Source: Clostridiaceae bacterium (GTDB taxonomy: Bacteria > Bacillota > Clostridia > Acetivibrionales > DTU013). Taken from it: 64,000 nucleotides of DNA. The DNA is taken from the NCBI GenBank assembly GCA_012519745.1, contig JAAYPO010000068.1, positions 3,154 to 67,153 of the forward strand, given 5' to 3'. The first letter of the stretch is position 1. The number at the start of each line of letters is the position of its first letter. This document shows, piece by piece, positions 1 through 43,685 of this stretch. Under the pieces are notes generated by a model, which worked only from the letters and a program-made list of their open reading frames with translations, did not search any database and was not told where the DNA came from. A program made the position numbers and the translations under genes.

Positions 1-788
1 AAAATGAAATAGAAGAGCATATGTTCACGGCATTGGAGGAAAGGGAATTCCTGGTCTTCCTGCAGCCGAAGTTCGACCTGCATACCGGCAGGCAGGCCGG
101 CGCAGAAGCGCTGGTGCGCTGGATGCATCCCGAAAAGGGACTGCTGTATCCCGGCCGTTTCATCAGCGTGTTTGAAAAGAATGGATTTATAGTCAAGCTT
201 GATATGTATATGCTCGATGAAATATGCCACCGCCTCAAGATATGGATCAGCAAGGGCTACCACCCGATGCCCATATCCCTGAATATTTCCAGGCTGAACC
301 TTTTCGATGAAGAATTCGTACCAAAGCTCATTGCCACGCTGGAGCAGTATGGCATCCCGGCAAATCTGGTACAGCTGGAGATGTCCGAGCAGGTGGTCAC
401 CAACAATATAGGCAAGCTGTCATCTCTCATAGACCATCTGAAGGATTACGGGTTCCTGATATCTATCGACAACTTCGGCACCGGCACCACTTCAATGAAC
501 ACGCTGTATACGATACCTGTGGATGAGCTGAAGCTGGACCGCAAATTCCTGCTGGAGGTCGAGAAGACCGACAGGGGCAAGAATGTTATACAAAGCATCA
601 TAGAAATGGCGAAACGCCTCAATATCAATGTGGTATCCGAAGGCGTGGAAAACAAGGCCCAGGCAAGGATGCTCCAGGAGCTCGGCTGCGACATGATCCA
701 GGGCTTTGCATTCTCCGAGCCCATGCCCTTCAGGGAATACGAGAACTATGCCTTCGGCCCCAGAGCCGACGAAGTCAATATATGGTGA
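1..788 (+). CDS. EAL-domain protein (c-di-GMP phosphodiesterase family), probably 5'-truncated by the window edge
   Basis: The frame is open from nt 3, upstream of the first Met at 21. EAL-domain blocks occur in the expected order: FLQPKF, GAEALVRW, LNISR, QLEMSE, SIDNFGTG (DDFGTG with D->N), KLDRKF, SEGVEN, QGF. Confidence 0.85.
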   Translation, partial: NEIEEHMFTALEEREFLVFLQPKFDLHTGRQAGAEALVRWMHPEKGLLYPGRFISVFEKNGFIVKLDMYMLDEICHRLKIWISKGYHPMPISLNISRLNLFDEEFVPKLIATLEQYGIPANLVQLEMSEQVVTNNIGKLSSLIDHLKDYGFLISIDNFGTGTTSMNTLYTIPVDELKLDRKFLLEVEKTDRGKNVIQSIIEMAKRLNINVVSEGVENKAQARMLQELGCDMIQGFAFSEPMPFREYENYAFGPRADEVNIW

Positions 789-879
789 TGTTATAGGGGA
801 GGATCTGCTATCCCGGTGAACAGCCGTACCGTCTTTTGCATAATATGAATAAAGCATGTTATGTAAAGGGTGGATCAAT

Positions 880-1563
880 ATGGCGAATATTTTTGTATAT
901 AATAATCAGACGGGAGCCATGGAGCTCTATACACTGGCGGAATCTGATGCGATGCCCTACAATATCGGCAGGACGCTGACGGTGAATGAGTTCAGGGGCA
1001 GTTCCCGGGCAAATACTCTCTGGACGACAAGACGGGCTATGGAGGCTTTCAATATTACAAGGAGAGCATGGGGACGTCCTATATATGTCGGATTTGCTTT
1101 CAAGCGGATATGGGAGGGAGGACACGCTGCAATGTCACAGCATTATGCAGGCGTGTCTTTTGATGTCGGGCAGAACCTGGACAGCGTGACCAGGGATCAG
1201 CTCAGGAACACCGCTGCAGCTACAGGTGTGTGGACCTATGTGGAGCCTGCCTACCTGACTCCGACATGGGTGCACTTTGATGCCCGCGCAACACCGCCGG
1301 CATGTCCCGCGGGAGGTTATCCGCTGGTGCGTCAGGGAAGTGTGAACAATTATGTGCTGACGCTGCAGGATGCGCTCAATGCCCTGGGATACACCGGTTC
1401 AGGCCTGGACGGGATATTCGGCGGAGGCACAAGGAATGCTGTGGTGAACTTCCAGCGGGCACAGGGACTGTCCGCCGATGGAATCGTTGGATGCCAGACG
1501 TGGGAGAGACTCACAGAGCTTGCTGTATCCATTGGCCAGACACCTACGGTGGTATCGCCGTGA
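880..1563 (+). CDS. LAS/M15-family zinc peptidase with C-terminal PG_binding_1 domain (endolysin-like, no signal peptide)
   Basis: From ORF 856..1563, with the start moved to ATG 880 (AAGGGTGG RBS about 6 nt upstream). H-x6-D signature (SQHYAGVSFD) plus a distal His in WVHFD. C-terminal peptidoglycan-binding repeat LQDALNALGY..DGIFGGGTRNAVVNFQRAQGLSADGIVGCQTW. The N-terminus is hydrophilic. Confidence 0.6.
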   Translation: MANIFVYNNQTGAMELYTLAESDAMPYNIGRTLTVNEFRGSSRANTLWTTRRAMEAFNITRRAWGRPIYVGFAFKRIWEGGHAAMSQHYAGVSFDVGQNLDSVTRDQLRNTAAATGVWTYVEPAYLTPTWVHFDARATPPACPAGGYPLVRQGSVNNYVLTLQDALNALGYTGSGLDGIFGGGTRNAVVNFQRAQGLSADGIVGCQTWERLTELAVSIGQTPTVVSP

Positions 1564-1654
1564 CATCATATTATATAAATGGATCCACAAGCAAAAGCAG
1601 CCTAAAAAAGTAAACATAAAGAGGGAAAAGCAGTTTTGTGTCGAAATATATACT

Positions 1655-3820
1655 ATGTCATATTCTTATAGAGGGGCTATTGTGAGAAGGATATATGATA
1701 TTTCTGCGAGACTTTATGACAATCCTGCTGTATCAGCCGTAAGAAACGGACTCCTCATGATTTTTCCGATCATAATAATCGGTGCTTTTGCAGCGCTTTT
1801 TCAGAATCTGCACATACCGCAATATGACAGTTTTATGGCCGGTATCCTGGGAGCACAGTGGAGAACTGTCCTTCAGTTTATTATCGACATATCGAGCGGT
1901 ATAGTATCGACAGCGCTGACGGTCACAATCAGCTACTGTATGGCAGGCGGAACTGAAAAATCACTCAGCGGTTCAGTCATACCTGTTATTCCCTCAATTG
2001 TTTCTCTTATGTGCTATTTTGCCCTTACATTGGATACAAGCGGTGAGCAGGCACTTTATCCAATGTCTGCCGGAGGCCTGCCTGCTGCAATATTTACCGG
2101 CCTGGTCTCAGTCAAGCTCTTTACCGTTTTGTATGATCTTCTGAGAAGGAGGATCAATTATTCAGGTCTTGCCACAAGCAGGTACCTTACTCAGGTCCTG
2201 TTGTCCCTGGTTCCTGCTTTTGTCGTTATCACGATTTTCATTATGCTGCGGTACGCTGTTTTTAAGCTTGGTTACAGCGATTCCAACAGTGTCCTTGCAT
2301 ATTGGTTTGTCAGATTGTTTGATAATATCGGCAGCTTGCTTGCCAAACTGGTCATATACGCGCTGATCGTCCATTTATTCTGGTTTTTGGGGATCCATGG
2401 CAATATGATGCTGGGTCCTGTGATGAGAAGCGTTATAGATGATACTTTATCCTTTGAGCAGATAAGCATCATTACATCAGGTTCGTCATCATTTACTACA
2501 GGAGAGCTGACAATGACCTTTTTCAGCACATTTGTCTTTGTCGGAGGTGTTGGCTCGACCATATGTCTTCTTGCTGCCATCCTCATCACAAACAGGAGGA
2601 CCAACACTGCAAAGCTGGCACGATTATCGTTGCTGCCTGCACTATTCAATATTAATGAAATATTGGTTTTTGGTCTCCCGGTGATACTGAATCCTATATT
2701 CCTGATACCATTTTTACTGTGTCCCATAATCATGCTGCTTTTATCCTACCTGGCGATAATATCCGGCTTGCTTCCACCTGTATATCAGGCGGTTTACTGG
2801 GCAGCGCCGCCTATCTACAACGCTTATGCGGCCAGCGGCAGCATCATGGGCCCTGTTGTGCAGCTTTTGTGTATTGCCGTGGGGACCTTGCTGTACATAC
2901 CGTTTGTAAAGCTAAACGGGAAAATCGTTTCTGACAGGACAAAGTCCACATATCATGAACTGAAGAAGCAGATAGAGGAGTGCAAATATGGTGACGGGTT
3001 CTCTTTCCTCAAGAGAAACGATTCTGTGGGATTCCTGGCTTATGTGCTGTTCGGGGAGCTGAAAGCGGCCATCAGGGATGATAAATTGATGCTGGAATAC
3101 CAGCCCCTGGTAAATGACGAGCCTGGTGTCATTGGGCTGGAGGCGCTGCTGAGATGGCCTCATGATAAGTTTGGACGAATACCTCCTATAGTGGTAATAG
3201 CTATTGCAGAGGAATTCGGATGTATGGATGAGCTGGGCAGATGGGTGATCAAAACGGCATGCAGACAGATGTCTGTGTGGAATTCTGACGGCCACAGAGA
3301 TATCAGGCTGTCTATCAATGTGTCGCCTACACAGCTGAGGGATCCGGTACTTGCGGGGTATCTGGAGAAATGTATTAAAGAGAACGGCCTTAATGCAACC
3401 GATGTGGAACTTGAAATCACAGAGAACGTGGTGATGGATCTGGACAGCGGGACAAAGGAAAACATCGACAGGATCAAGACCTTCGGGGTCAAGCTTGCCA
3501 TGGATGACTTTGGTATGGGGTATACGTCGCTGCTTTACATCCGGCACTGCAATATCGACAGGATAAAAATCGACGGCTCGATCATCAGAGATATACTAAG
3601 GGATAAGAACTGTCAGGATATAGTCTCTTCCATGGTTTATCTGTGCAAATCACTGAATATCCAGGTAATAGCGGAGTTTGTAGAGAACGAGAAACAGTAT
3701 GCTCTTTTGAAAGAGCTTGGATGCAGTGAATACCAAGGATATCTTTTCAGCCCGCCGCTTCCGCCGGATAAGGTCCCGGACTTTTTGAATAAATTGAAGA
3801 GTGAGTATATTCAAGGCTGA
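1655..3820 (+). CDS. PTS EIIC (lactose/cellobiose type)-like membrane domain fused to an EAL c-di-GMP phosphodiesterase domain
   Basis: From ORF 1478..3820, with the start moved to ATG 1655 (MSYSYRG). The first ~440 aa are polytopic and hydrophobic and carry the EIIC type-3 hallmark FWFLGIHGNMMLGP. The C-terminal ~250 aa form a complete EAL domain: YQPLV, LEALLRW, SINVS, ELEITE, MDDFGMGYTS, KIDGS, AEFVEN, QGYLF. Confidence 0.8.
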   Translation: MSYSYRGAIVRRIYDISARLYDNPAVSAVRNGLLMIFPIIIIGAFAALFQNLHIPQYDSFMAGILGAQWRTVLQFIIDISSGIVSTALTVTISYCMAGGTEKSLSGSVIPVIPSIVSLMCYFALTLDTSGEQALYPMSAGGLPAAIFTGLVSVKLFTVLYDLLRRRINYSGLATSRYLTQVLLSLVPAFVVITIFIMLRYAVFKLGYSDSNSVLAYWFVRLFDNIGSLLAKLVIYALIVHLFWFLGIHGNMMLGPVMRSVIDDTLSFEQISIITSGSSSFTTGELTMTFFSTFVFVGGVGSTICLLAAILITNRRTNTAKLARLSLLPALFNINEILVFGLPVILNPIFLIPFLLCPIIMLLLSYLAIISGLLPPVYQAVYWAAPPIYNAYAASGSIMGPVVQLLCIAVGTLLYIPFVKLNGKIVSDRTKSTYHELKKQIEECKYGDGFSFLKRNDSVGFLAYVLFGELKAAIRDDKLMLEYQPLVNDEPGVIGLEALLRWPHDKFGRIPPIVVIAIAEEFGCMDELGRWVIKTACRQMSVWNSDGHRDIRLSINVSPTQLRDPVLAGYLEKCIKENGLNATDVELEITENVVMDLDSGTKENIDRIKTFGVKLAMDDFGMGYTSLLYIRHCNIDRIKIDGSIIRDILRDKNCQDIVSSMVYLCKSLNIQVIAEFVENEKQYALLKELGCSEYQGYLFSPPLPPDKVPDFLNKLKSEYIQG

Positions 3821-5111: not shown

Positions 5112-5178
5112 TTGCATAATATCAGCGATTCATTCAAGACTATGTATATGAAAGATATTGCATAGAAGGAGAATGAAG

Positions 5179-5343
5179 ATGAAGGATAAGAGGAAGGACT
5201 ACAATCTTGGTGTGCCGGTGGAGAAGCACGATACTGCGGCATGGGCGAATGTCGAGAAGAAGAAATCCCATTCCAGGGTGCCCATACCATCTGAGTTTCA
5301 GATCATAAATGCCAAGCTCCATGTGGACGAAAACGAGAAATGA
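5179..5343 (+). CDS. small conserved hypothetical protein (54 aa; resembles clostridial DUF3787-type small proteins)
   Basis: From ORF 5158..5343. ATG 5179 is preferred (GAAGGAG RBS 7 nt upstream). The sequence HDTAAWANVEKKK..IPSE..INAKLHVDENEK recalls a small clostridial protein family, from memory only. A strong terminator follows directly. Confidence 0.4.
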   Translation: MKDKRKDYNLGVPVEKHDTAAWANVEKKKSHSRVPIPSEFQIINAKLHVDENEK

Positions 5344-9327: not shown

Positions 9328-9393
9328 AGATAAAGCATGAGTTTTGTCGAGTATCTGCGATTGGTATAAGATTATTGATAAGTGAGGTTCAGG

Positions 9394-11352
9394 ATGGAAA
9401 TTGAAAACAAAAGAATCCTCATAGCTGACGATAACAAGGATATACATGATGACATCAAGTATATCCTTGAGACTTCTTCCGGGTATATGGAGGACTATCA
9501 GGAAACAAAGCTCCTGAAGGAGGAGCTGTTTGGAGAGAGCCGGCAGAGCCCTGCAAATAAGGCTGTAATAGATATAAAGTATGATATCGATGATGCTTAT
9601 CAGGGGAACGAGGCCATTGAAATGGTCAGCAGGGCCAGAGAAGCCGGAGAACCTTATTCGCTGATATTCATGGATGTCAGGATGCCGCCGGGGATGGATG
9701 GGATCGAGACAATAGAGAAAATATGGGAGATCGACCGTGATGTGGGTGTAGTGATATGTACCGCATATTCGGATTACTCCTGGGATCAAATCATTTCAAA
9801 GCTTGGGCACAAGGATAACCTTCTGTTTATAAGAAAACCCTTCGACAATGTATCACTGAAGCAGATAGCTCTTGCCATGACTACAAAATGGAGCCTGAAA
9901 ATGCAGGTGAAAAAGCATATAGGAACCCTTGAGCAGGAAGTGGACAAAAGGACAATGGAGCTTAAGCTGACCGTTGAGAAGCTAAGGGATGAAATAGTGC
10001 TCCGTGAAGAAAAGGAGAAGCTTTTGGCGTATAGCGCCCATTATGACTCATTGACTGAGCTGCTCAACAGGAGATCCTTCTCTGACTCCGTCAAATCACT
10101 CATCGATGAGGAGCCGAGCCGCTGCAGGTCGTTTTCACTATTCTATCTTGACCTTGATGATTTTAAAAGCGTCAATGATATTTACGGTCACGATATCGGA
10201 GACCAGCTGCTGATCAAAGTGTCAGAGAGGATAGGAAGGATGCTGGATGAGCATGCATGCTATGTGCCGGACTATGTAAGCGAGCACGGAAAGGTAAAGG
10301 CTATATTCAGACTTGGAGGAGATGAATTCACGGCAGTTGTAAATGAGACAGACCGAAGGGCTGTGGGAAAAATAGCGCAGTCTCTTATTGACTCGATCAG
10401 TGAGCCTTATATCATCTCAGGGCATGAGGTAGATGTTTCCTGCTGTATCGGTATCAGCATATACAAAGGGAAGGATACTCCGATAAATACATTGCTGAAG
10501 TATGCGGATATAGCTCTCTATGAAGCGAAGAAGGTACACAGCACATATAGGTTCCATGAACTGTCGGAGTCATATTCCTACATCAATGAAAAAAGGATCG
10601 AGAGGGAATTAAAAAAAGCCATCGCCAGGAATCAGATCGATGTATATATGCAAAGTCTGGTCAACACCAGGGATGAGGTCATCGGAATGCAGTCGCTGAT
10701 CAGGTGGCTGCACCCGGAATATGGTGAGCTTGAGCCCGGGCGTTTTTTGCATATCGCACAGAAATCCGACCAGATCATTGTCCTTGGCGCATATGTTATC
10801 AGGAAATCACTGGAGTATCTAAAAAGGATACATGAATCCGGCCACGACAAGCTTTTTGTGATGGTCAGCTGTACATCCAGGGAATTTTACCATCCGGGTT
10901 TTGTTGACAGCATAAAGTCGGCGGTCAATGAAGCAGGCATAGCGCCGTCATATCTGAAGCTTAATCTGGAGGACAAGTTCACCTTCCAGACTACACCGGG
11001 TGCCCTGGCTATTATTCGGGAGCTCAATGAGTTCGGGGTACAGTTTGCCCTCAATGGCTTTGACAGTGATTATCCTGCATTCGTTTTCCTGCAGCAGGTC
11101 CCGAAGGATACTATGATCAAGCTTAACAGAGCGTATGTCAAAAATATTGCCACAGATACAAAAAACCAAAAATTTCTGATGGCTCTTATGGATATCATTG
11201 AGACCTGGGAACTGGATGTGATCATAAGCGGTATTGAGACCCAGGAGCAAAAGAGCATCCTTGATTCAAGGGAGTGTATACTGCAGGGGTATCATTTCAA
11301 TACACCCAAGCCCATCGACCAGTATCTGAAAGATCTTGCGGCAGGAGAATAA
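9394..11352 (+). CDS. response regulator: REC + GGDEF (intact) + degenerate EAL domain
   Basis: From ORF 9382..11352, with ATG 9394 preferred (GTGAGG RBS). REC blocks: ILIADDN, FMDVRMPPGMDG, VICTAYSD, IRKPF. GGDEF domain with RLGGDEFTAV. The EAL-like domain has its key residues replaced: GMQSLIRW, VSCTS, LNLED, NGFDSDY, KLNRAY, SGIET. QGYHF is retained. Confidence 0.85.
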   Translation: MEIENKRILIADDNKDIHDDIKYILETSSGYMEDYQETKLLKEELFGESRQSPANKAVIDIKYDIDDAYQGNEAIEMVSRAREAGEPYSLIFMDVRMPPGMDGIETIEKIWEIDRDVGVVICTAYSDYSWDQIISKLGHKDNLLFIRKPFDNVSLKQIALAMTTKWSLKMQVKKHIGTLEQEVDKRTMELKLTVEKLRDEIVLREEKEKLLAYSAHYDSLTELLNRRSFSDSVKSLIDEEPSRCRSFSLFYLDLDDFKSVNDIYGHDIGDQLLIKVSERIGRMLDEHACYVPDYVSEHGKVKAIFRLGGDEFTAVVNETDRRAVGKIAQSLIDSISEPYIISGHEVDVSCCIGISIYKGKDTPINTLLKYADIALYEAKKVHSTYRFHELSESYSYINEKRIERELKKAIARNQIDVYMQSLVNTRDEVIGMQSLIRWLHPEYGELEPGRFLHIAQKSDQIIVLGAYVIRKSLEYLKRIHESGHDKLFVMVSCTSREFYHPGFVDSIKSAVNEAGIAPSYLKLNLEDKFTFQTTPGALAIIRELNEFGVQFALNGFDSDYPAFVFLQQVPKDTMIKLNRAYVKNIATDTKNQKFLMALMDIIETWELDVIISGIETQEQKSILDSRECILQGYHFNTPKPIDQYLKDLAAGE

Positions 11353-11353
11353 T

Positions 11354-13918
11354 ATGTATAAACGTATCGGTCCGGATCCGCACAAAAAAAGATATACCTT
11401 TGGCTTTCTGGATGAGAACATCGATAATGATTTTCACAACCTGATCCTGGAGGGCATATCGGAGGCCGCCCGGGAGCTGGACATAGATGTGATCAGATTC
11501 AGCTACTATTCCTCCCACATAGCCTACAAATTTTCACATCAGGTAGATATGGTCCTTGATCATATACAGCAGTACGATCTTGACGGACTGCTGTTTCTCG
11601 GCTGGACCCAGGCAGGGGCGATGTACAATCATGAGGATTTCATGCGGCGTTTCGGTTCCATGCCTTTGTTGAGCCTTGGTACTATTTTCGATGATATACC
11701 GTCTGTCTATTTTACGGGTGATGAATTCATTGCAAAGATGACACGCCATCTCATAGAGGTGCACAACCTGACAAGAATAGCTTATGTAGAGCATTACAGA
11801 GCCGATAACAGAAGGGATGCCTATGAACGTGTCATGCGTGAATACGGGATATATGATCCCAGGCTGTATGTGGGGAATGATGTGCTTCCATCAGGGATGG
11901 ACCAGCATCAGGAGAGAAGCAGGAGAGCTGCGCAGGTCCTGATGGACGAGAGAAAGCTTGATGTCCAGGCAGTTATATCACCGAACTACAATGAAACCGG
12001 TTTTTTAATAGATGAGTTTCAGTCCAGAGGCTTTAGCGTGCCTGCAGATATTGCCGTCGTCAGCTACGAGGAGGGCGATTTTGCAGAGTACTCCTATCCC
12101 GGATACACTACGGTGTATTTTCCCTGGAGGGAGCTTGGCTATGTTGGCTGCGTGAAGCTGGAGAAGCTTGTAAGGGAAGGCAGCATACCCATGGAAACGG
12201 AGCTGTCCGATTATGGCAGGATAATATACAGAGAATCCTGCGGATGCCTCCCATATTATGTAAGACCGGCAGACGCGGAGCGTACCGGTGATTCGGTACA
12301 TGGTGTCGACGGCATGACTGCCTTGGAGAAATGTAATATCGTGAATTCGCTTTACTCGTTGTACGAAGGCTGTGGTATATCCTTTGAGAAGCTGGTAGAT
12401 GCATTTATAATTGCATTCATATGCAGGGATGGCATGACCTTTCTCAAGGAGGCGGAAGAACAGCTGCGAAATATAAAGGCACATTCCAAGATAAATGAAT
12501 TGGCAACCGATATCAGAAACCTGATCTACCCGTTCTTACTTACAGATATCAATGGGATGTTGTGGTCAGGCAACCTGTTCATGCAGTTCCAGGCCCTTGT
12601 CAGTGAAAAGACGGCATGTATGCACGGAGTAGAGGTGCTCAGGGCAAGGATGATGGACCAGAGCCTGCAAAATCTGGACCAGCGGCTGTTTTTGAATTTC
12701 TCGCTCCACCATCTCATTACCGTACTGGAAGACGGATTGAAAATGCTTGAGATAAACAGCTGCCATATTTTTATATCAAATTCTATTTTTACCGGCACAG
12801 ATGTGGAGGAAAATCTTTTTGACAACAGTGTGCTGCTGTTCAAGTATGTAAACGGGAAAAGGATAGAGACATCCCAAATGGCAGGCAGCCTGAAGCAGCA
12901 GCTGGCCATGATCCGGTCAGAAGGGATAGGACAGGTATCGCTGGCCTATTTGCTGCATGTGACAGATGAAATAATGGGATTTGTGCTGTTTGGTCCGGGT
13001 GCGGGACCGCTGGATGAGATATTCTATCAAACCCTGTCTACCAACATCAGTACTTCCCTGCATGGTATCGTGCTTTTGAACAGGCTGGACCAGGCTTACA
13101 GAAAACTTGTGGAGCATGCCCAGAAGGAAGGGATGGCTGACATTGCTGCAAATATCCTGCACAGCATAGGAAACACGCTCAATAGCATGAATGTCTCACT
13201 TCATCTGGTGGAGGAAAGCTCCGGGGCACAGCTGTTCAGCGACATCATCATGGCGGGCGGGCTGCTTGGTGAAAACATGATGAGGCTGGAGGAGTTCATC
13301 AGCTCGGATGTGAGGGGCAAAAAGCTCATGCAGTTTTATCTGAAGCTGGGGAATGCCGCCGAAAGACTGCAGCTGCAGCTGATCCAGAACATGTACAGAC
13401 TCAAATCAAAGATTGCCGCCATCAATGATGCAGTTGCGGCACAGCAAAGCTACGCAGGGATAGACGTAAGGCTTGAGGAGCTTTTGCTGGAGCCCATAAT
13501 CGAAGATGCCCTCAAGCTGAACAAGGATACCTTCGACAGACAGTCCATCACTGTCGCCAGGGAGTATGAGCCCGGCTTCAGGGCGCTGGTACACAGGGCA
13601 AAGCTGTTTTTTATCATTTTCAATATCATTTCAAATGCCAGAGATGCAATGAGCAGTTATCCTGCAAATAATAAAACCATCTCGATAAAGACATACACGG
13701 ACAACTCCGGAAAGTATCTGAGGATAAGCGATAATGGCAGAGGTATCCCGGAGGGCAGTCTTGACAGAATATTTGAATATGGATTTTCCACCAAGGAGGG
13801 CCGCTCCGGTTACGGACTGTACAGCTGCAGCAGATATATGGAGGATATGGGCGGAACGATCCATGCCGAAAGCGACGGGAAAGAAAAGGGAGCGTCCTTT
13901 GTTCTCAAGTTTTCATAG
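11354..13918 (+). CDS. soluble sensor histidine kinase with N-terminal LacI/periplasmic-binding-fold core domain (paralogue 1)
   Basis: From ORF 11336..13918. ATG 11354 (AGGAGA RBS) lies 1 nt after the RR stop. LacI-core-like blocks: GFLDENIDNDFH, DGLLFLGW, RIAYVEH..RRDAYERVM, DIAVVSYEEGDF. I see no HTH, signal peptide or TM segment. H-box ANILHSIGNTLNS, N-box FNIISNARDAM, G1 DNGRGIP, G2 GYGLYSC. Confidence 0.75.
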   Translation: MYKRIGPDPHKKRYTFGFLDENIDNDFHNLILEGISEAARELDIDVIRFSYYSSHIAYKFSHQVDMVLDHIQQYDLDGLLFLGWTQAGAMYNHEDFMRRFGSMPLLSLGTIFDDIPSVYFTGDEFIAKMTRHLIEVHNLTRIAYVEHYRADNRRDAYERVMREYGIYDPRLYVGNDVLPSGMDQHQERSRRAAQVLMDERKLDVQAVISPNYNETGFLIDEFQSRGFSVPADIAVVSYEEGDFAEYSYPGYTTVYFPWRELGYVGCVKLEKLVREGSIPMETELSDYGRIIYRESCGCLPYYVRPADAERTGDSVHGVDGMTALEKCNIVNSLYSLYEGCGISFEKLVDAFIIAFICRDGMTFLKEAEEQLRNIKAHSKINELATDIRNLIYPFLLTDINGMLWSGNLFMQFQALVSEKTACMHGVEVLRARMMDQSLQNLDQRLFLNFSLHHLITVLEDGLKMLEINSCHIFISNSIFTGTDVEENLFDNSVLLFKYVNGKRIETSQMAGSLKQQLAMIRSEGIGQVSLAYLLHVTDEIMGFVLFGPGAGPLDEIFYQTLSTNISTSLHGIVLLNRLDQAYRKLVEHAQKEGMADIAANILHSIGNTLNSMNVSLHLVEESSGAQLFSDIIMAGGLLGENMMRLEEFISSDVRGKKLMQFYLKLGNAAERLQLQLIQNMYRLKSKIAAINDAVAAQQSYAGIDVRLEELLLEPIIEDALKLNKDTFDRQSITVAREYEPGFRALVHRAKLFFIIFNIISNARDAMSSYPANNKTISIKTYTDNSGKYLRISDNGRGIPEGSLDRIFEYGFSTKEGRSGYGLYSCSRYMEDMGGTIHAESDGKEKGASFVLKFS

Positions 13919-13934
13919 GAGATGTGATGATATT

Positions 13935-16469
13935 ATGGGACGGAGATTTAGAATAGGCTTTGTGGATGAGGATACATATGACGAATATCACAATTTACTG
14001 ACCAAGGGCATACTGGACTCTGCATGTCAGAATAATATGGATATCATACGTTTCAGCCACTTCCACTATCAGGTCACCTCATCAAACCCGTATCATGAGA
14101 GCGTATATATCGGGCTGATCCGCCAATTCAGACTGGATGGGCTGATCTTTTTGGGATGGGAACGTACTGCCTATAACAGCAGCTTTTTTGAGAGCATGAA
14201 GGATATACCCATGGTCAGTGTGGGTGTACGATTCGACAATGTGGCCGGTGTATATTTCAGAGGCCAGATATATGTAGCTGAAATAATCAGGCACCTGATC
14301 AATGTGCACGGGATGAAGAAGATAGCCTTCATCGCTCCCATCAGGCCTGATGACAGGACGGATGCCTATTTTGAGGTCATGGACAGCTATGGTATGTACG
14401 ACCCCCGTCTTTTCATCAGCCATGAGGAATTATCCGGCCTTGACCAGAGTGAAAGGGGCAGGAGAGCCGTCGGGATCCTTCTCGATGAAAGAGGACTGTG
14501 CCCGGAGGCAATAGTTTCGCTGTATAATGAGGAGACCTTCCAGATAGTGAATGAACTGCAGAGAAGAGGACTTAGGGTCCCGGACGATATAGCGGTAACA
14601 AGCTATGAGGACGGTGAGACCGGCAGATTTTCAATGCCGGCCTTCACAACGGTGTATTTCCCATGGAAGGAGCTTGGGTTCCATGCCTGCGAGGTGATGA
14701 ATGCGCTGCTGACCAAGGGAGAGGTACCTCTGGAAACGATAGTTCCCGGCAATTTGATCTATCGCAGCTCATGCGGATGTATCCCCCAATCGGCGATCTC
14801 CATGGAGACCGGAAGTATCCCGTATTCAGATATCAGGTTCGAGGACCTTGACGAGGACGGACTAAAGAGGATCATCAACGGCATTGCGGAGATGACACCG
14901 TTTGATGCGGCCGAGGCAGGTGCACTGATGGATTCCTTCAGGGAAGCCTTTTACAAGGGTGAGCACAGTTCCTTCCTCATGAAGTTCGAGATGATGCTAA
15001 GGAAGGTGCGTTTTTATGATGAATTCAGAGAATTCAAGCATATAACCGTTGTGTTCCGGAAGCTGCTGATGCCCTATTTCCTTCCGTACGCAGGAGTTTC
15101 TATGGAAAAACCGGTGTGGGCCGACAATATGTTCCATCAGATGCAGGTAATCCTGCAGGACAGGCTGGCAAATGCGTGGTTCCGCAAGGATGTGGAATAC
15201 AACAAGCAGAAGCTTGCCCTGAGGGAAGCAGGGAAGGTATTGTTGACCAGCTTCAGTGTGGAGAGCTTATTTGCAACACTGGAGGCCAATCTGCCCGGTC
15301 TTGGCATAGACAACTGCTGGCTTTATCTCTTTAATGACAGAGAGGGAACGGATATCCCTGATGATTTCCGTCCGGAGTTCATATTCAGGGACGGCAGCCG
15401 TGCTGCGGATCAGAGGCTGTATGACAAGAGCGGCCCCCTATGCCTGGAGGATATATGGTTTGATGATGATACGCCTCATTTCCTGATGTCGCATCTGTTG
15501 TATCAGGGTGATCAGTTCCTTGGTTTCTGTGTATTTGAAACCGGGCTGATGGATGTGAGGATAATCCGCAGCCTCAGTATCCTGATCAGTATAGCTCTCA
15601 ACAGCACCATATTGTTTGAGAAGCTGGACCAGAGCTATAGAAAGCTGATGGAAAAGGCCCATAAGAAAGGGATGTCGGACACCACAGCGATACTTCACAA
15701 CATAGCGAATATAATGAACAGCATCAATGTAACATATCAGGGCCTTGCCGGCATTATCGAGGGAAGTTGTGTTTACGATCTGAAAAGAGCCAATGAGATG
15801 CTGGAAGGCAAATTTGAGCAGTTGGATGATTTTATCAGGAACGATCCAAAGGGAAGGCTCCTGATGCAGTATTATCTTTCCTTCGGCGATTCATTCAGGC
15901 AGCTGCAGAGCAGGCTGAAGGAATATGCCTCCAGAATGCTGGACAAGACCGGCCTTATCGAGGATATCATCAACTCGCAGCAGAGCTTCGAGGGCATCAG
16001 ATCCAATCTGGAGCTGATGGATATCATACCTGTATTGGAGGACGCGCTGAAAATGAGCCGGAATATAATTGACACCAGCGGCGTACAGGTCGTCAAAAGA
16101 TATGACAGACAGGTCAAGGCTCTGGCACAGAGGACTAAACTGATACACATACTGATCAATATCATAAAGAACGCGGTGGAATCGATGCAGCATGGCAATG
16201 CCTCTGATAAGGTACTGACCATCGAGGTGACCTGCGATAGAGAGAGTGTCTATCTCCGGATTTGTGATACAGGACCGGGCATAGAAGCAGGAAAGCTTGA
16301 AAGCATTTTCGCCTATGGCTTCACTACAAAAACCACCGGACATGGCTTTGGGCTCCATAGCTGTGCAAACTATATGGCTGAAATGAAAGGGAGGATATGG
16401 GCGGAAAAGCCTGAAACAGGCACAGGCGCTGTCTTTGTGATGCAATTCAGGTCTCAGCCCTCCCTTTGA
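13935..16469 (+). CDS. soluble sensor histidine kinase with N-terminal LacI/periplasmic-binding-fold core domain (paralogue 2)
   Basis: From ORF 13734..16469, with the start moved to ATG 13935 (MGRRFRIGFVDEDTYDEYHNL; AGGAG RBS). It is collinear with the upstream kinase: DGLIFLGW, KIAFIAP..DRTDAYFEVM, DIAVTSYEDGE. H-box TAILHNIANIMNS, N-box INIIKNAVESM, G1 DTGPGIE, G2 GHGFGLHSC. Confidence 0.75.
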   Translation: MGRRFRIGFVDEDTYDEYHNLLTKGILDSACQNNMDIIRFSHFHYQVTSSNPYHESVYIGLIRQFRLDGLIFLGWERTAYNSSFFESMKDIPMVSVGVRFDNVAGVYFRGQIYVAEIIRHLINVHGMKKIAFIAPIRPDDRTDAYFEVMDSYGMYDPRLFISHEELSGLDQSERGRRAVGILLDERGLCPEAIVSLYNEETFQIVNELQRRGLRVPDDIAVTSYEDGETGRFSMPAFTTVYFPWKELGFHACEVMNALLTKGEVPLETIVPGNLIYRSSCGCIPQSAISMETGSIPYSDIRFEDLDEDGLKRIINGIAEMTPFDAAEAGALMDSFREAFYKGEHSSFLMKFEMMLRKVRFYDEFREFKHITVVFRKLLMPYFLPYAGVSMEKPVWADNMFHQMQVILQDRLANAWFRKDVEYNKQKLALREAGKVLLTSFSVESLFATLEANLPGLGIDNCWLYLFNDREGTDIPDDFRPEFIFRDGSRAADQRLYDKSGPLCLEDIWFDDDTPHFLMSHLLYQGDQFLGFCVFETGLMDVRIIRSLSILISIALNSTILFEKLDQSYRKLMEKAHKKGMSDTTAILHNIANIMNSINVTYQGLAGIIEGSCVYDLKRANEMLEGKFEQLDDFIRNDPKGRLLMQYYLSFGDSFRQLQSRLKEYASRMLDKTGLIEDIINSQQSFEGIRSNLELMDIIPVLEDALKMSRNIIDTSGVQVVKRYDRQVKALAQRTKLIHILINIIKNAVESMQHGNASDKVLTIEVTCDRESVYLRICDTGPGIEAGKLESIFAYGFTTKTTGHGFGLHSCANYMAEMKGRIWAEKPETGTGAVFVMQFRSQPSL

Positions 16470-18032: not shown

Positions 18033-18791
18033 TTATGAAGCAAATTTCCAGTAGCGATACAAACCGTGGAAATCAGGCCGTGTGGCGGAATCCATCAGAT
18101 AGGCGGATACCTGTGAGCCGGCGATCCTGTTTTGATTGAGGGCTCTTATGAAATACTCCACATCACCTGTGCCTATACCATGACCGTAATATCTGCCGCT
18201 TCCCAGATCGATGATGTTCTCCCCCTGCCACTCGGGTGTCAGCGGATTCACATCCGGATTCTTCACATACCTGCAATCGCCCGGTACATAGTCGGGCAGT
18301 CTGCGGTAGGTCGATACACCCAGCAGGTCGTCCATGTCACGCCAGTTCATAAGCACGATCTCACCGAAGGCTTTGTTGAACAGGTCTGCCTTGTATGAAT
18401 CCAGTACAGCCTTGTAGTATATGATCACGATCGCGGTAGCACATTCCGTGCCATACAGGCGTGTGTTGACGAATATGTCGTCGATGGCCTCGGAGGGTCT
18501 GACGCCGGTCTTGAGTGTGAAGCCTCCGTCCACTCTTCTGTTCCAATATCTTTCATTGCATTTGGATTCCTGGAATATGCGGAATGCCAGCCTGCTTCTG
18601 TAAAGTGCGATGGAGGCGTCGATGATATGACGCCGCAAATCAGCCTCAAAAACTAGCTCCTCTCCCGAGGAGTAATCATATACATGACTGCTGTCTATGT
18701 ATGCTCTCAGGAACTCATATTCGGGACTTCCGCTGCCGTATCTGTCAAGAATTTTTTTCGGATCATCCTGGCCGTCTGCAAACCTGATCAT
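18033..18791 (-). CDS. tgl: protein-glutamine gamma-glutamyltransferase (spore-coat transglutaminase)
   Basis: 252 aa. It is collinear with recalled B. subtilis Tgl: ECATAIVIIYY is identical, GDCRYVKNPDV matches GDCLYFKNPEF, WQGENIIDLG matches WRGENVILLG, and YYGHGIG matches YFAHGLG. Confidence 0.92.
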   Translation of the reverse strand: MIRFADGQDDPKKILDRYGSGSPEYEFLRAYIDSSHVYDYSSGEELVFEADLRRHIIDASIALYRSRLAFRIFQESKCNERYWNRRVDGGFTLKTGVRPSEAIDDIFVNTRLYGTECATAIVIIYYKAVLDSYKADLFNKAFGEIVLMNWRDMDDLLGVSTYRRLPDYVPGDCRYVKNPDVNPLTPEWQGENIIDLGSGRYYGHGIGTGDVEYFIRALNQNRIAGSQVSAYLMDSATRPDFHGLYRYWKFAS

Positions 18792-42509: not shown

Positions 42510-43286
42510 CTAGTATACGAACACCATGCGGCCGATCCATGCTTTAACGGGCTTTGACCAAAGCCATTTGTTGGTGGCGCTGTCATCAAAGTAGAAGAGA
42601 GCGCCGTTACTCGGGTCATTGCCTTTCAGTGCTTCGAGGGCGGCATTCCTGTCCTGCTGTGACGCGGGTTTTTTGATCATTCCGTTTTTGACAGGCGTAA
42701 ATTGATAATACCCATTGCTGCTGATTTCATATATAACGGATGATATTGTGTTTGGGAACAGATCGCTCTTTATCCTGTTCACTATTACCGCTGCGACACC
42801 GACTTTTGCTGCATATGGTTCACTTTCAGCTTCTGCCCTTACTAGTCTGGCCAGCAGATCGAGCTCTGCCTCAGTATACGATATGACAGCTTTACTGCTG
42901 TTTGTTGACGAATTCGTGCCGGCGGCCATACCTGGAATATTCAGCTGCTGTCCGGGATATATCATGTCATCCCATTTGTTGTTTGCCTTTCTCAGCTGAG
43001 CTAAAGAAATACCATACTTGCCTGCTATGATGCTCAGTGTTTCTCCGCTTTTTACCGTATGGCTCCGGGCCCTTACATAAAGCTTCTGACCGGGATAGAT
43101 CGTATCGCCGGACAGCTTGTTGTCCGATTTTATCACCGTGTAAGATGTGTTGAACATCTGTCCGATGATGTACAGCGAGTCGTTGCGCTGTACCGTGTAG
43201 CTTGCACCAAAGGCAGCCTGGGCTGTCAGTACAACAGATAAAACGACACCGGCAGTCAATGCCGCTGCTTTTTTGAATAATTTCAT
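42510..43286 (-). CDS. secreted cell-wall hydrolase: signal peptide + 2x LysM + SleB/CwlJ-type Hydrolase_2 domain
   Basis: N-terminal signal sequence MKLFKKAAALTAGVVLSVVLTAQAAFG. Two LysM repeats (YTVQRNDSLYIIGQMF.. and HTVKSGETLSIIAGKY..). Hydrolase_2 block LLARLVRAEAESEPYAAKVGVAAVIVNRIKS..YQFTPV. Confidence 0.85.
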   Translation of the reverse strand: MKLFKKAAALTAGVVLSVVLTAQAAFGASYTVQRNDSLYIIGQMFNTSYTVIKSDNKLSGDTIYPGQKLYVRARSHTVKSGETLSIIAGKYGISLAQLRKANNKWDDMIYPGQQLNIPGMAAGTNSSTNSSKAVISYTEAELDLLARLVRAEAESEPYAAKVGVAAVIVNRIKSDLFPNTISSVIYEISSNGYYQFTPVKNGMIKKPASQQDRNAALEALKGNDPSNGALFYFDDSATNKWLWSKPVKAWIGRMVFVY

Positions 43287-43297
43287 TTTTCCCCCTT

Positions 43298-43452
43298 TTC
43301 GCCTCCGAGGTTAGTTTTCGGGTTCGGGTCGAGGTAACCCTGCTCAAAATGAGATTCACCCACTGGACTTATCGGTGCATGAGGACATTCCCATGCTTAC
43401 CGGTCCCGGTATTGCTTGTCCCCCGTACTCTCTTCGAGATTCGGCTTTTTAT
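43298..43452 (-). promoter_or_regulatory. c-di-AMP riboswitch (ydaO/yuaA class) in the 5' leader of the LysM/SleB-type hydrolase
   Basis: The minus-strand RNA carries these blocks in order: GCCGAAUC, GUACGGGGGACAA, GUGGGUGAAUC, GAGCAGGG, ACCCGAACCCGAAAACUAACCUCGGAGGC. They match recalled B. subtilis ydaO blocks GCUUAAUC, GAGCGGGGGACCCA, GGGGUGAAUC, GGUAGGG and ACCCGAACCCGUCAGCUAACCUCGUAAGCG. The element ends about 12 nt before the GGGGG RBS. Confidence 0.8.
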
Positions 43453-43685
43453 TTTTGGCAGCGCCTCTTCCTCTTTCACTGCTAACTGTGATAATTAATG
43501 AAGCGCCGGTCTTATGTCAACATGTATTCTAACAGAGGAGCTTATGCTTTTCCATGATACATTTCTGGCAGAAGTGGTAGTATAATGGAGAAAGAGATAA
43601 TGATTTTCAGGAGACATTCCTTTGCTTTTGAAGCAGCTTCCCTTGCACAGGAGTGTCCCCTTACCGAATGAGGTTGATAAGATAT

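What the first reader, a model, noticed from the sequence alone, without database searches (positions are those of the whole stretch)
1655..3820. PTS EIIC-like permease domain fused to a catalytically intact EAL phosphodiesterase
Seen in sequence:
- One 721-aa protein joins a polytopic domain bearing the lactose/cellobiose-type EIIC hallmark (FWFLGIHGNMMLGP) to a C-terminal EAL domain.
- That EAL domain retains every canonical catalytic block: EAL, N, ExxE, DDFG, KxD, E(F)VE and QGY.
- No EIIA or EIIB gene, and no phospho-accepting domain, lies nearby.
- The upstream neighbour at the window edge is another EAL protein.

Inference: the EIIC domain acts as a sugar-binding sensor (a 'transceptor') that controls c-di-GMP degradation rather than working as a phosphotransferase.
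Basis: partly seen in the sequence, partly recalled or inferred. Interest (0 to 1): 0.55.

Follow-up and report, generated by a model that had tools for sequence, protein, structure and literature searches.

The report
Sugar-permease domain fused to c-di-GMP phosphodiesterase
One membrane protein joins a cellobiose/chitobiose-type sugar-permease domain to an intact c-di-GMP-degrading enzyme; it belongs to a widespread, database-listed family for which I found no experimental study, and the permease part most likely works as a sugar sensor.

Summary
Window 1655-3820 (+) encodes one protein of 721 aa, more likely 712 aa from GTG 1682. It has a ChbC-like PTS EIIC domain (Pfam 98 bits; PDB 3qnq E=1e-47) and a complete EAL domain (227 bits). 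No EIIA, EIIB, HPr or EI gene lies anywhere in the 64-kb window.

The protein is not unique. About 130 of the 150 best representatives found with the EIIC domain alone share the ~700-aa architecture, across Bacillota, Proteobacteria and other phyla. A 2022 review lists the architecture as rare. I found no experimental study.

Across 167 members, all 28 near-invariant membrane positions carry the same residue as ChbC. These include the two sugar-coordinating residues, H250 and E334. All ten catalytic EAL residues are at least 98% conserved.

Several results favour a sensor role:
- No conserved PTS partner appears in about 60 loci.
- The same EIIC clade is also fused to hybrid histidine kinases.
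- One relative is split into overlapping EIIC and EAL genes.
- The linker length is fixed at 62-68 residues.

Sugar transport, or phosphotransfer through an EIIB encoded elsewhere, cannot be excluded by computation. Verdict: an ordinary member of a catalogued but uncharacterised transporter-derived sensor family; moderate interest.

The parts
1655..3820 (+). The probable true start is GTG 1682 (712 aa).
1670..1684 (+). Shine-Dalgarno-like AGAGGGG (1670-1676) followed by GTG 1682, the likely start codon
   Evidence: Read from the sequence. N-termini of close homologs P0002/3/5/6 begin at this position.
1694..2926 (+). ChbC-like PTS EIIC membrane domain (residues 14-424; 10-TM elevator-type fold by homology)
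   Evidence: Pfam PF02378 98 bits. TIGR00410 202.6 bits. 3qnq E=1e-47. Foldseek match to 3qnq with probability 1.0.
2381..2401 (+). W243-F-L-G-I-H248-G motif. H248 corresponds to ChbC H250, a sugar-coordinating histidine.
   Evidence: role of H250 from PMC11393339
2648..2659 (+). N332-I-N-E335 motif. E335 corresponds to ChbC E334, a sugar-coordinating glutamate.
2927..3055 (+). Linker (residues 425-467). It comprises the cytoplasmic continuation of the TM10 helix, a loop carrying the family-conserved R-x-D-x-h-G motif, and the pre-EAL helix.
   Evidence: AF2 secondary structure. Length from F417 to Q483 is 62-68 residues in 165 members.
3056..3757 (+). EAL c-di-GMP phosphodiesterase domain (residues 468-701) with all catalytic residues
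   Evidence: Pfam PF00563 226.7 bits. Alignments to BifA, PA0575 and MucR. Foldseek TM 0.92 and rmsd 1.9 to 8arv. Family conservation.
3140..3148 (+). E496-A-L signature
3503..3514 (+). D617-D-F-G metal-binding motif. The next residue is Met in 93% of the family (DDFGMG).
856..1563 (+). Upstream gene encoding a PG_binding_1 protein, possibly co-transcribed. The gap to the EIIC-EAL gene is about 90-120 nt with no terminator-like site.
1..788 (+). C-terminal EAL domain of an upstream protein whose frame is open at the window edge

Best explanation
The gene encodes an inner-membrane, probably dimeric, c-di-GMP phosphodiesterase. Its input module is a ChbC-like (lactose/cellobiose/chitobiose-family) EIIC domain.

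Proposed mechanism:
1. A sugar, most likely a beta-linked di- or oligosaccharide, binds in the conserved His/Glu pocket of the EIIC transport subdomain.
2. Binding shifts the elevator-type equilibrium of that subdomain.
3. TM10 belongs to the moving subdomain and continues as one long helix into the cytoplasm. Its displacement therefore travels through a fixed-length linker to the EAL domain.
4. This changes EAL dimer geometry and c-di-GMP hydrolysis, coupling sugar availability to the choice between biofilm and motility.

What is shown: the domain identities, retention of the catalytic and sugar-coordinating residues, orphan status, recombination of this EIIC clade with other outputs, and linker constraint. 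What is inferred: ligand binding, the direction of regulation, elevator-to-EAL coupling, and independence from PTS phosphotransfer.
For: - Both domains score well above the Pfam thresholds.
- ChbC H250 and E334 are the two sugar-coordinating residues conserved across the Glc/Lac EIIC superfamily (PMC11393339). They are kept in 96% and 93% of 167 family members, with Asp in 9 more at the Glu position.
- All 28 near-invariant membrane positions carry the same residue as bcChbC.
- The EAL catalytic residues are at least 98% conserved.
- No PTS gene lies in the 64-kb window.
- None of 8 Pfam-annotated homolog contexts has one.
- phmmer with Pfam-validated ChbB, ChbA, LacF, HPr and EI seeds, run over 1.48 Mb from 90 sources, found no Lac-type IIB or IIA.
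- No family is enriched among 90 flanking ORFs.
- The EIIC clade is self-coherent: about 131 of the best 150 representatives are ~700 aa, and two are EIIC-HisKA-HATPase-REC kinases.
- A split EIIC + EAL gene pair overlaps by 4 nt in L090.
- The AF2 model (pLDDT 86.9) shows TM10 continuing as a 45-residue helix into the linker.
- Linker length is 62-68 residues in 165 members that share only about 30-35% identity.
- Precedents exist for transporter-derived receptors: Sd-Amt1 (Amt-HAMP-GGDEF, PMC11152129), Ks-Amt5 (PMC5764959) and CbrA (PMC13022988).
Against: - No experiment exists for any family member, as far as the searches reached.
- Conserved H250/E334 are just as expected for a working PTS permease.
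- The host genome outside the window is unknown and may encode EIIB/EIIA that act in trans.
- My single-sequence seeds for EIIB are weak (55 bits to Pfam), and there was no positive control among the loci.
- EAL loop 6 reads DFGMGYTS rather than the DFG(T/A)GYSS recalled from my own knowledge of active EALs. The effect on activity is unknown.
- The AF2 EIIC domain superposes poorly on 3qnq as a whole (TM 0.49, rmsd 10.5).
Confidence: 0.55

Rival explanations
1. It is a working PTS permease. It uses EIIB/EIIA encoded elsewhere in the genome to import and phosphorylate a beta-glucoside-type sugar. The EAL domain sits where the IIB domain sits in LacE-type EIICB proteins and reports transport flux or EIIB~P docking. 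PDE activity would then track the PTS phosphorylation state rather than simple ligand occupancy.
For: The residues near the phosphoryl-accepting sugar hydroxyl (H250 and E334 equivalents) and all ChbC hallmark motifs are retained. Spore-forming Bacillota often carry several Lac-family PTS sets, and shared EIIA/EIIB components are documented (abstract of PMC11976118). A review calls PTS_EIIC in c-di-GMP proteins a 'phosphoreceiver' (PMC8846402). PTS control of an EAL enzyme has precedent in V. cholerae EIIA-Glc and PdeS.
Against: No EIIB or EIIA lies in the 64-kb window or in any of about 60 family loci. The family is common in hosts such as Methylophaga, Sideroxyarcus, Zoogloea and Accumulibacter. 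From general knowledge, sugar-specific Lac-type PTS is not expected in these hosts; this was not tested here. Fusion of the same clade to histidine kinases points to a generic input role. A review states that Lac-family systems always come as multi-protein EII complexes (PMC13543919), which is not seen here.
Confidence: 0.22
2. The EIIC domain is only a membrane anchor and dimerisation scaffold. The protein is a constitutive, membrane-localised phosphodiesterase with no ligand input.
For: EAL activity generally depends on dimerisation (own knowledge), and EIIC proteins are obligate dimers (PMC13543919). No ligand is known.
Against: A charged Glu and a His buried in the membrane domain are kept in 93-96% of members. 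All near-invariant positions coincide with ChbC substrate-site and hairpin motifs, although overall identity is only about 30-35%. A passive anchor would be expected to drift at these positions. Recombination of the clade with a kinase output also argues for signalling.
Confidence: 0.1
3. Signalling runs the other way. The EAL domain senses c-di-GMP and gates sugar transport through the EIIC domain.
For: EAL domains can act as c-di-GMP receptors, as in FimX and LapD, both of which appear among the PDB hits.
Against: Receptor-type EAL domains have lost catalytic residues (own knowledge). Here all ten are at least 98% conserved. The histidine-kinase-fused relatives cannot be explained this way.
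Confidence: 0.05

Closest known systems
B. cereus ChbC (PDB 3qnq), the N,N'-diacetylchitobiose EIIC of the PTS Lac family (TC 4.A.3)
   Same: The match covers the full EIIC length (residues 14-423, E=1e-47, roughly 25-30% identity). It shares the WxxGIHG and NINE motifs with the sugar-coordinating H250 and E334. Foldseek probability is 1.0.
   Different: There are no EIIB/EIIA partners nearby. The C-terminus carries an EAL domain. The score is below the TIGR00410 cut-off. The fused clade is closer to itself than to ChbC: the 150th representative scores 177 bits, against 166 bits for ChbC.
Sd-Amt1 (Amt-HAMP-GGDEF) and Ks-Amt5 (Amt-histidine kinase), ammonium-transporter-derived receptors (PMC11152129, PMC5764959)
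   Same: A transporter-fold membrane domain is fused to a cytoplasmic signalling enzyme. In Sd-Amt1 the output is also c-di-GMP metabolism. This is the closest 'works like' precedent.
   Different: The transporter fold differs (Amt channel versus elevator-type EIIC). The output differs (cyclase or kinase versus EAL phosphodiesterase). There is no HAMP domain here. Those proteins were studied structurally and functionally; this family was not.
Pseudomonas CbrA (SLC5 transporter domain fused to a histidine kinase), called a 'transceptor' (PMC13022988, PMC7096432)
   Same: A solute transporter domain is fused to a signalling output in one polypeptide. This parallels the EIIC-HisKA-HATPase-REC relatives found here.
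   Different: The transporter family, ligand (histidine) and output all differ. The title of PMC7096432 refers to both transport and kinase activities of CbrA, which shows that sensing and transport need not exclude each other.
V. cholerae EIIA-Glc and PdeS (PTS control of an EAL phosphodiesterase; summarised in PMC8846402)
   Same: Sugar availability is coupled to c-di-GMP degradation through a PTS component.
   Different: There the soluble EIIA-Glc regulates a separate PDE by protein-protein interaction and by its phosphorylation state. Here the membrane EIIC is covalently fused, and no phospho-carrier is evident.
PTS_EIIC + EAL/GGDEF architectures catalogued from Pfam v34 in Randall et al. 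2022 (PMC8846402)
   Same: This is the same domain architecture, and the window protein is a member.
   Different: The review only lists the architecture as rare and calls the domain a 'phosphoreceiver', with no experiment. EIIC is not phosphorylated in the canonical PTS scheme, in which the phosphoryl group goes from EIIB to the sugar (PMC13543919).

Membership tests
PTS EIIC, lactose/cellobiose/chitobiose (Lac) family | Significant match to the EIIC profile (Pfam PF02378 gathering score) | tested here: met
   98.1 bits against a cut-off of 30.7, residues 30-357, full profile 1-319
PTS EIIC, lactose/cellobiose/chitobiose (Lac) family | Reaches the curated NCBIfam TIGR00410 (lacE/cellobiose IIC subfamily) cut-off | tested here: not met
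   202.6 bits against a cut-off of 236. It is a divergent subclade.
PTS EIIC, lactose/cellobiose/chitobiose (Lac) family | ChbC-type fold with the conserved sugar-coordinating His (H250) and Glu (E334) | tested here: met
   Alignment to 3qnq. 96% and 93% conservation in 167 members. Role of these residues from PMC11393339. Foldseek probability 1.0 but global TM only 0.49.
PTS EIIC, lactose/cellobiose/chitobiose (Lac) family | Works with cognate EIIB and EIIA, as fused domains or adjacent genes (Lac family described as always multi-protein EII, PMC13543919) | tested here: not met
   None in the 64-kb window. None in 8 annotated homolog contexts. None in 1.48 Mb of family loci searched with phmmer seeds. 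Trans-acting partners elsewhere in the genome cannot be excluded.
PTS EIIC, lactose/cellobiose/chitobiose (Lac) family | PEP-dependent sugar uptake with concomitant phosphorylation | not testable with these tools
   Needs transport and phosphorylation assays.
EAL-domain c-di-GMP phosphodiesterase | EAL domain profile match | tested here: met
   PF00563 at 226.7 bits, residues 468-701. Foldseek TM 0.92 and rmsd 1.9 to the BifA EAL domain.
EAL-domain c-di-GMP phosphodiesterase | Catalytic and metal-binding residues present (E of EAL, R, N, ExxE, DD, K, E, Q) | tested here: met
   E496, R500, N555, E587, E590, D617, D618, K638, E674 and Q694 are present and at least 98% conserved. The list of required residues comes from my own knowledge of the RocR and TBD1265 studies.
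EAL-domain c-di-GMP phosphodiesterase | Loop 6 consensus DFG(T/A)GYSS of active enzymes (own knowledge) | tested here: inconclusive
   The sequence is DFGMGYTS. Met at this position is a family trait, present in 93% of members.
EAL-domain c-di-GMP phosphodiesterase | Hydrolysis of c-di-GMP to pGpG | not testable with these tools
   Needs an enzyme assay.
Transporter-derived membrane receptors ('transceptors': Sd-Amt1, Ks-Amt5, CbrA) | Transporter-fold domain covalently joined to a signalling output domain | tested here: met
Transporter-derived membrane receptors ('transceptors': Sd-Amt1, Ks-Amt5, CbrA) | The same input domain recombines with different output modules | tested here: met
   EIIC-EAL in about 131 of the 150 best representatives. 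EIIC-HisKA-HATPase-REC in P0134 and P0201. Split EIIC + EAL genes in L090.
Transporter-derived membrane receptors ('transceptors': Sd-Amt1, Ks-Amt5, CbrA) | Ligand binding to the transporter domain changes output activity | not testable with these tools
   Needs biochemistry.

The most novel reading that the evidence does not exclude
EIIC-EAL proteins, their EIIC-histidine-kinase relatives and the split EIIC + EAL pairs form a PTS-independent class of elevator-type sugar receptors. The rigid-body movement of a former permease domain is read out through the extended TM10 helix as second-messenger turnover. These receptors also operate in bacteria that have no sugar PTS at all. The ligand could be a beta-linked disaccharide derived from matrix or cell-wall polysaccharide, which would give feedback on biofilm state. 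The ligand idea is speculative. It rests only on the ChbC relationship and on peptidoglycan-related neighbours in some Bacillota loci.
Probability: 0.35. Interest if true: 0.65.

Novelty: new member of a known kind. Interest (0 to 1): 0.4.

Why it matters
Very few c-di-GMP enzymes have a known signal, and sugar inputs are known mainly through indirect PTS cross-talk (EIIA-Glc and PdeS). If the EIIC domain is a direct sugar receptor, this family would link a defined extracellular carbohydrate to c-di-GMP degradation in one polypeptide. It would also be a case of an elevator-type transporter reused as a receptor.

The hypothesis is directly testable, because the candidate ligand-site residues (H248, E335) and the catalytic residues are known.

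For annotation, the result shows that labels such as 'PTS cellobiose transporter subunit IIC' given to these ~700-aa proteins are probably misleading. The 'phosphoreceiver' label in the review literature also does not fit canonical EIIC biochemistry.

Tried and rejected
- Primary bcChbC and bcMalT structure papers: I tried to read them (PubMed 21471968, PMC3201810, PMC4899283, PMC6003338) and the Barabote and Saier PTS census (PMC1306802). None is held. The role of H250/E334 was instead confirmed from PMC11393339.
- Experimental work on EIIC-EAL: three literature searches found only the 2022 review listing. The review's supplementary table is not held.
- Regulatory RNA upstream of the gene: none found in Rfam at the gathering threshold over the whole window, nor at E<=1 over 700-1800.
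- Conserved operon partner that might name the ligand: 90 flanking ORFs from 48 loci show no enrichment; the top family is Response_reg at 5 of 90. An OprD porin overlaps the gene end in one Accumulibacter locus, and peptidoglycan genes flank it in one Bacillota clade. Neither association is general.
- HPr + EI near the gene in two Sideroxyarcus loci: this proved to be an EIIA-Man/HPr/EI operon 3.5 kb away, separated by GshA and ApbE genes. I rejected it as a cognate Lac-type partner.
- Sporomusa ovata homolog P0023: its contig look-up found nothing on record.
- Whole-genome presence or absence of PTS in host species: this could not be tested, because only flanks are retrievable. The single C. 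kluyveri literature search returned nothing I used.
- Window versus a mobile-element insertion: the gene has lower G+C (43-45%) than its flanks (50-53%). I found no repeats or integrase evidence and did not pursue it.
Full report
**What is in the sequence**

A single open reading frame ends at 3820 on the + strand. No ribosome-binding site precedes it. GTG 1682 (codon 10) has AGAGGGG five bases upstream, and the gene calls for the closest homologs start at the equivalent position. The protein is therefore more likely 712 aa. Residue numbers below use the 721-aa frame.

Pfam finds PTS_EIIC over residues 30-357 (98.1 bits, cut-off 30.7) and EAL over residues 468-701 (226.7 bits). NCBIfam places the membrane part closest to the lactose/cellobiose IIC subfamily TIGR00410 (202.6 bits over 16-424), but below its 236-bit cut-off. 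Against solved structures, residues 14-423 match B. cereus ChbC (3qnq) at E=1e-47. The C-terminus matches the EAL domains of BifA, PA0575, MucR and DosP at E=1e-46 to 1e-53.

An AlphaFold2 model built on a 70-sequence family alignment is confident (pLDDT 86.9, pTM 0.79). Its EAL part superposes on the BifA EAL domain at TM 0.92 and rmsd 1.9 Å. Its membrane part hits 3qnq with probability 1.0 over 443 columns, but the global fit is poor (TM 0.49, rmsd 10.5 Å). That could reflect a different relative position of the scaffold and transport subdomains; I could not examine this further.

**The 'no partners' part of the observation**

I scanned essentially every ORF of 120 aa or more in the 64-kb window with Pfam and inspected the small intergenic ORFs. 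There is no PTS_IIA, PTS_IIB, HPr or EI.

The neighbours are:
- an EAL domain whose frame is open at the window edge;
- a PG_binding_1 protein, at 856-1563;
- an M24 peptidase;
- PFOR;
- a REC-GGDEF-EAL protein followed by two Peripla_BP_3-HATPase kinases.

Only 1.6 kb is visible upstream of the gene. The one other contig carrying this exact protein adds nothing upstream. No Rfam family lies upstream of the gene.

**It is a family, not a one-off**

A word-indexed search returned 813 hits at E<=1e-10. All but one of the best 120 carry PF02378 + PF00563, and most are 700-730 aa; P0015 (432 aa) carries PF02378 only, and a few others are shorter, probably truncated. Named sources include Sporomusa, Desulfitobacterium, Clostridium kluyveri, Pelosinus, Synergistaceae, Planctomycetota, Accumulibacter, Zoogloeaceae and a deltaproteobacterium.

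A scan of species-representative genomes added about 50 full-length copies. These come from Zoogloea, Duganella, Methylophaga, Nisaea, Ideonella, Azonexus, Propionivibrio, Sideroxyarcus, Rhodoferax, Emergencia timonensis and others.

I then searched 1.84 billion 50%-identity representatives with the EIIC domain alone. About 131 of the best 150 are ~700-aa proteins. The 150th scores 177 bits, above the 166 bits of crystallised ChbC. The fused EIIC domains are therefore closer to one another than to that canonical transporter.

The architecture is listed, as rare, in a Pfam-based census of c-di-GMP sensory domains (Randall et al. 2022, PMC8846402). That review calls PTS_EIIC a 'phosphoreceiver' and cites no experiment on it. 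Three further literature searches found no functional study.

**Are both halves under selection for their canonical functions?**

I aligned 167 members, which share about 30-35% identity with the query. Twenty-eight membrane-domain positions are at least 93% conserved, and every one carries the same residue as bcChbC. They include W245, G248, H250, G251, the GGxG turn, N331, N333, E334, the GxP...N hairpin and the TM10 YxPF motif.

H250 and E334 are the only sugar-coordinating residues of IIC-Chb that are conserved with the glucose and maltose EIICs (PMC11393339). They are kept in 96% and 93% of members, with Asp in nine more at the Glu position.

In the EAL half, E496, R500, N555, E587, E590, D617, D618, K638, E674 and Q694 are each at least 98% conserved. 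Loop 6 reads DFGMGYTS, and Met here is a family trait (93%). From my own knowledge, active EALs usually have T or A at this position, so this is a small caveat.

**Sensor or permease?**

Four comparative results bear on this question.

1. Orphan status is a property of the family.
   - Eight homolog contexts with precomputed Pfam annotation contain no PTS gene and share no synteny.
   - I validated remembered ChbB, ChbA, LacF, HPr and EI sequences against Pfam. I then ran them with phmmer over six-frame ORFs of 90 sources totalling 1.48 Mb. No Lac-type IIB or IIA appeared.
   - The only hits were HPr + EI in two Sideroxyarcus loci. That is an EIIA-Man/HPr/EI operon 3.5 kb away, beyond GshA and ApbE genes, not a cognate partner.
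   - Among 90 immediately flanking ORFs from 48 loci, the commonest family is Response_reg, at 5 of 90.
2. Two of the 150 nearest EIIC domains (P0134 and P0201) are fused to HisKA-HATPase_c-REC instead of EAL. Both keep the GIHG and NINE motifs. P0134 stands alone with no PTS neighbour. One input domain recombined with different signalling outputs is the classical signature of a sensor module.
3. The best-scoring EIIC-only relative (P0125, rank 8) is followed by a 300-aa EAL gene that overlaps it by 4 nt. This is a split version of the same pair.
4. The model shows TM10 continuing as one 45-residue helix into the cytoplasm, then a loop and the pre-EAL helix. The distance from the TM10 F417 to the EAL Q483 is 62-68 residues in 165 members, despite low sequence identity. 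A conserved R-x-D-x-h-G motif caps the pre-EAL helix.

In ChbC-type EIICs the C-terminal helices belong to the mobile transport subdomain (own knowledge of the ChbC structure; elevator mechanism summarised in PMC13543919). A fixed-length connection from that subdomain to the enzyme fits mechanical coupling.

**What this does not settle**

Retention of H250 and E334 is equally expected for a working permease. Lac-family EIIB/EIIA can be shared between operons (abstract of PMC11976118). The rest of this organism's genome is unseen. It appears to be a spore-former, given the TGL spore-coat transglutaminase and a SleB-type Hydrolase_2 cell-wall hydrolase.

My EIIB seed is a single, weakly scoring sequence, and I had no positive control among the loci.

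Many carriers are methylotrophs, iron oxidisers or polyphosphate accumulators. From general knowledge, Lac-type sugar PTS is not expected in them, but I could not scan whole genomes.

The input-module reading is well supported by comparative evidence. 'Not a phosphotransferase' remains inference.

**Most likely mechanism (confidence about 0.55)**

A dimeric membrane phosphodiesterase binds a beta-linked sugar in the His/Glu pocket of its EIIC domain. Binding shifts the elevator equilibrium of the transport subdomain. TM10 and the fixed-length linker carry that displacement to the EAL domains, which changes their dimer geometry and their activity.

Rivals:
- a true PTS permease with trans-acting EIIB/EIIA, whose EAL domain reports flux or EIIB~P (about 0.22);
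- an inert anchor and dimeriser (about 0.10), disfavoured by the conserved buried His and Glu;
- a c-di-GMP-gated transporter (about 0.05), disfavoured by the intact catalytic site and the kinase-fused relatives.

**Comparison with what is known**

By membership, this is a divergent Lac-family EIIC domain plus a canonical EAL domain. It fails the Lac-family expectation of cognate EIIB/EIIA and falls below the TIGR00410 cut-off.

By mechanism, the closest precedents are transporter-derived receptors. These are Sd-Amt1 (Amt-HAMP-GGDEF, PMC11152129), Ks-Amt5 (Amt-kinase, PMC5764959) and CbrA (SLC5-kinase, PMC13022988 and PMC7096432). For a PTS-to-c-di-GMP link, the precedent is V. cholerae EIIA-Glc and PdeS.

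**Verdict**

The window protein is a new member of a catalogued architecture. I found no experimental characterisation of the family itself. Interest is moderate, at 0.4. A specialist would not be very surprised, because transporter-like sensor domains are an accepted concept. The family is nonetheless large and phylogenetically broad, it is mislabelled in annotation as a cellobiose PTS subunit, and it offers a cleanly testable route to a sugar input for c-di-GMP signalling.

Noticed in passing
window 43286-43456 (-), upstream of 42510-43286 (-): A c-di-AMP (ydaO-type) riboswitch, 75.5 bits against a gathering score of 38. It sits directly upstream of a gene encoding a LysM + Hydrolase_2 cell-wall hydrolase.
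   Followed up: partly
window 44507-53308 (+): A 2933-aa protein with two GH94 supersandwich stretches, a GH94 catalytic domain and a glucoamylase-like domain. It resembles a cyclic beta-1,2-glucan synthase or phosphorylase. Pfam matched nothing in the first ~1370 residues.
   Followed up: no
window 9382-16469 (+): A REC-GGDEF-EAL protein is followed by two tandem ~860-910-aa proteins with a Peripla_BP_3 sugar-binding-protein-like domain and HATPase_c, but no HisKA hit. Together with the two EAL genes at 1-3820, this makes a c-di-GMP-rich neighbourhood.
   Followed up: no
window 1-788 (+): The upstream EAL ORF has no in-frame stop between base 3 and its first ATG at 21. It is probably the C-terminal domain of a larger protein cut by the window edge.
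   Followed up: partly
L090 6001-8162: The closest EIIC-only relative (P0125, 420 aa) is followed by a 300-aa EAL gene overlapping it by 4 nt. This is either a split form of the fusion or an assembly frameshift. A GGDEF gene lies just downstream.
   Followed up: partly
P0134 (L091 3552-6599) and P0201: The same EIIC clade is fused to HisKA-HATPase_c-REC hybrid histidine kinases of 1015 and 964 aa, with the GIHG and NINE motifs kept.
   Followed up: partly
L034 15476-17860; L082 13748-15855: In L034 (Sideroxyarcus) an EIIA-Man/HPr/EI operon lies about 3.5 kb downstream of the EIIC-EAL gene, separated by GshA and ApbE genes. L082 shows HPr + EI hits at the corresponding place; its EIIA was not checked. 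The arrangement is probably coincidental.
   Followed up: partly
window 1500-3000 versus flanks; L003 17489-19810: The gene's G+C (43-45%) is lower than that of its flanks (50-53%). In a related genome (L003) the PG_binding_1 and M24 peptidase genes are adjacent, and that genome's EIIC-EAL homolog lies elsewhere, after a Mur-ligase/PBP5/FemAB cluster. The window copy may be a paralog or an insertion.
   Followed up: no
L007 6187-7566: In a Candidatus Accumulibacter contig, an OprD-family porin gene overlaps the 3' end of the EIIC-EAL gene, suggesting an operon. This was not seen in other loci.
   Followed up: no
window 2927-3055 and 3503-3520 (family-wide): Two family-specific signatures appeared: an R-x-D-x-h-G motif capping the pre-EAL helix (G459 in 94% of members) and DDFGMG, where other EAL domains usually have DDFG(T/A)G.
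   Followed up: partly
window 18036-18791 (-), 5158-5343 (+): A spore-coat transglutaminase (TGL, 294 bits) points to an endospore-forming Bacillota host. A small ORF lies where relatives L003 and L009 carry a CDIF630_02480-like gene; the window ORF itself was not scanned.
   Followed up: no
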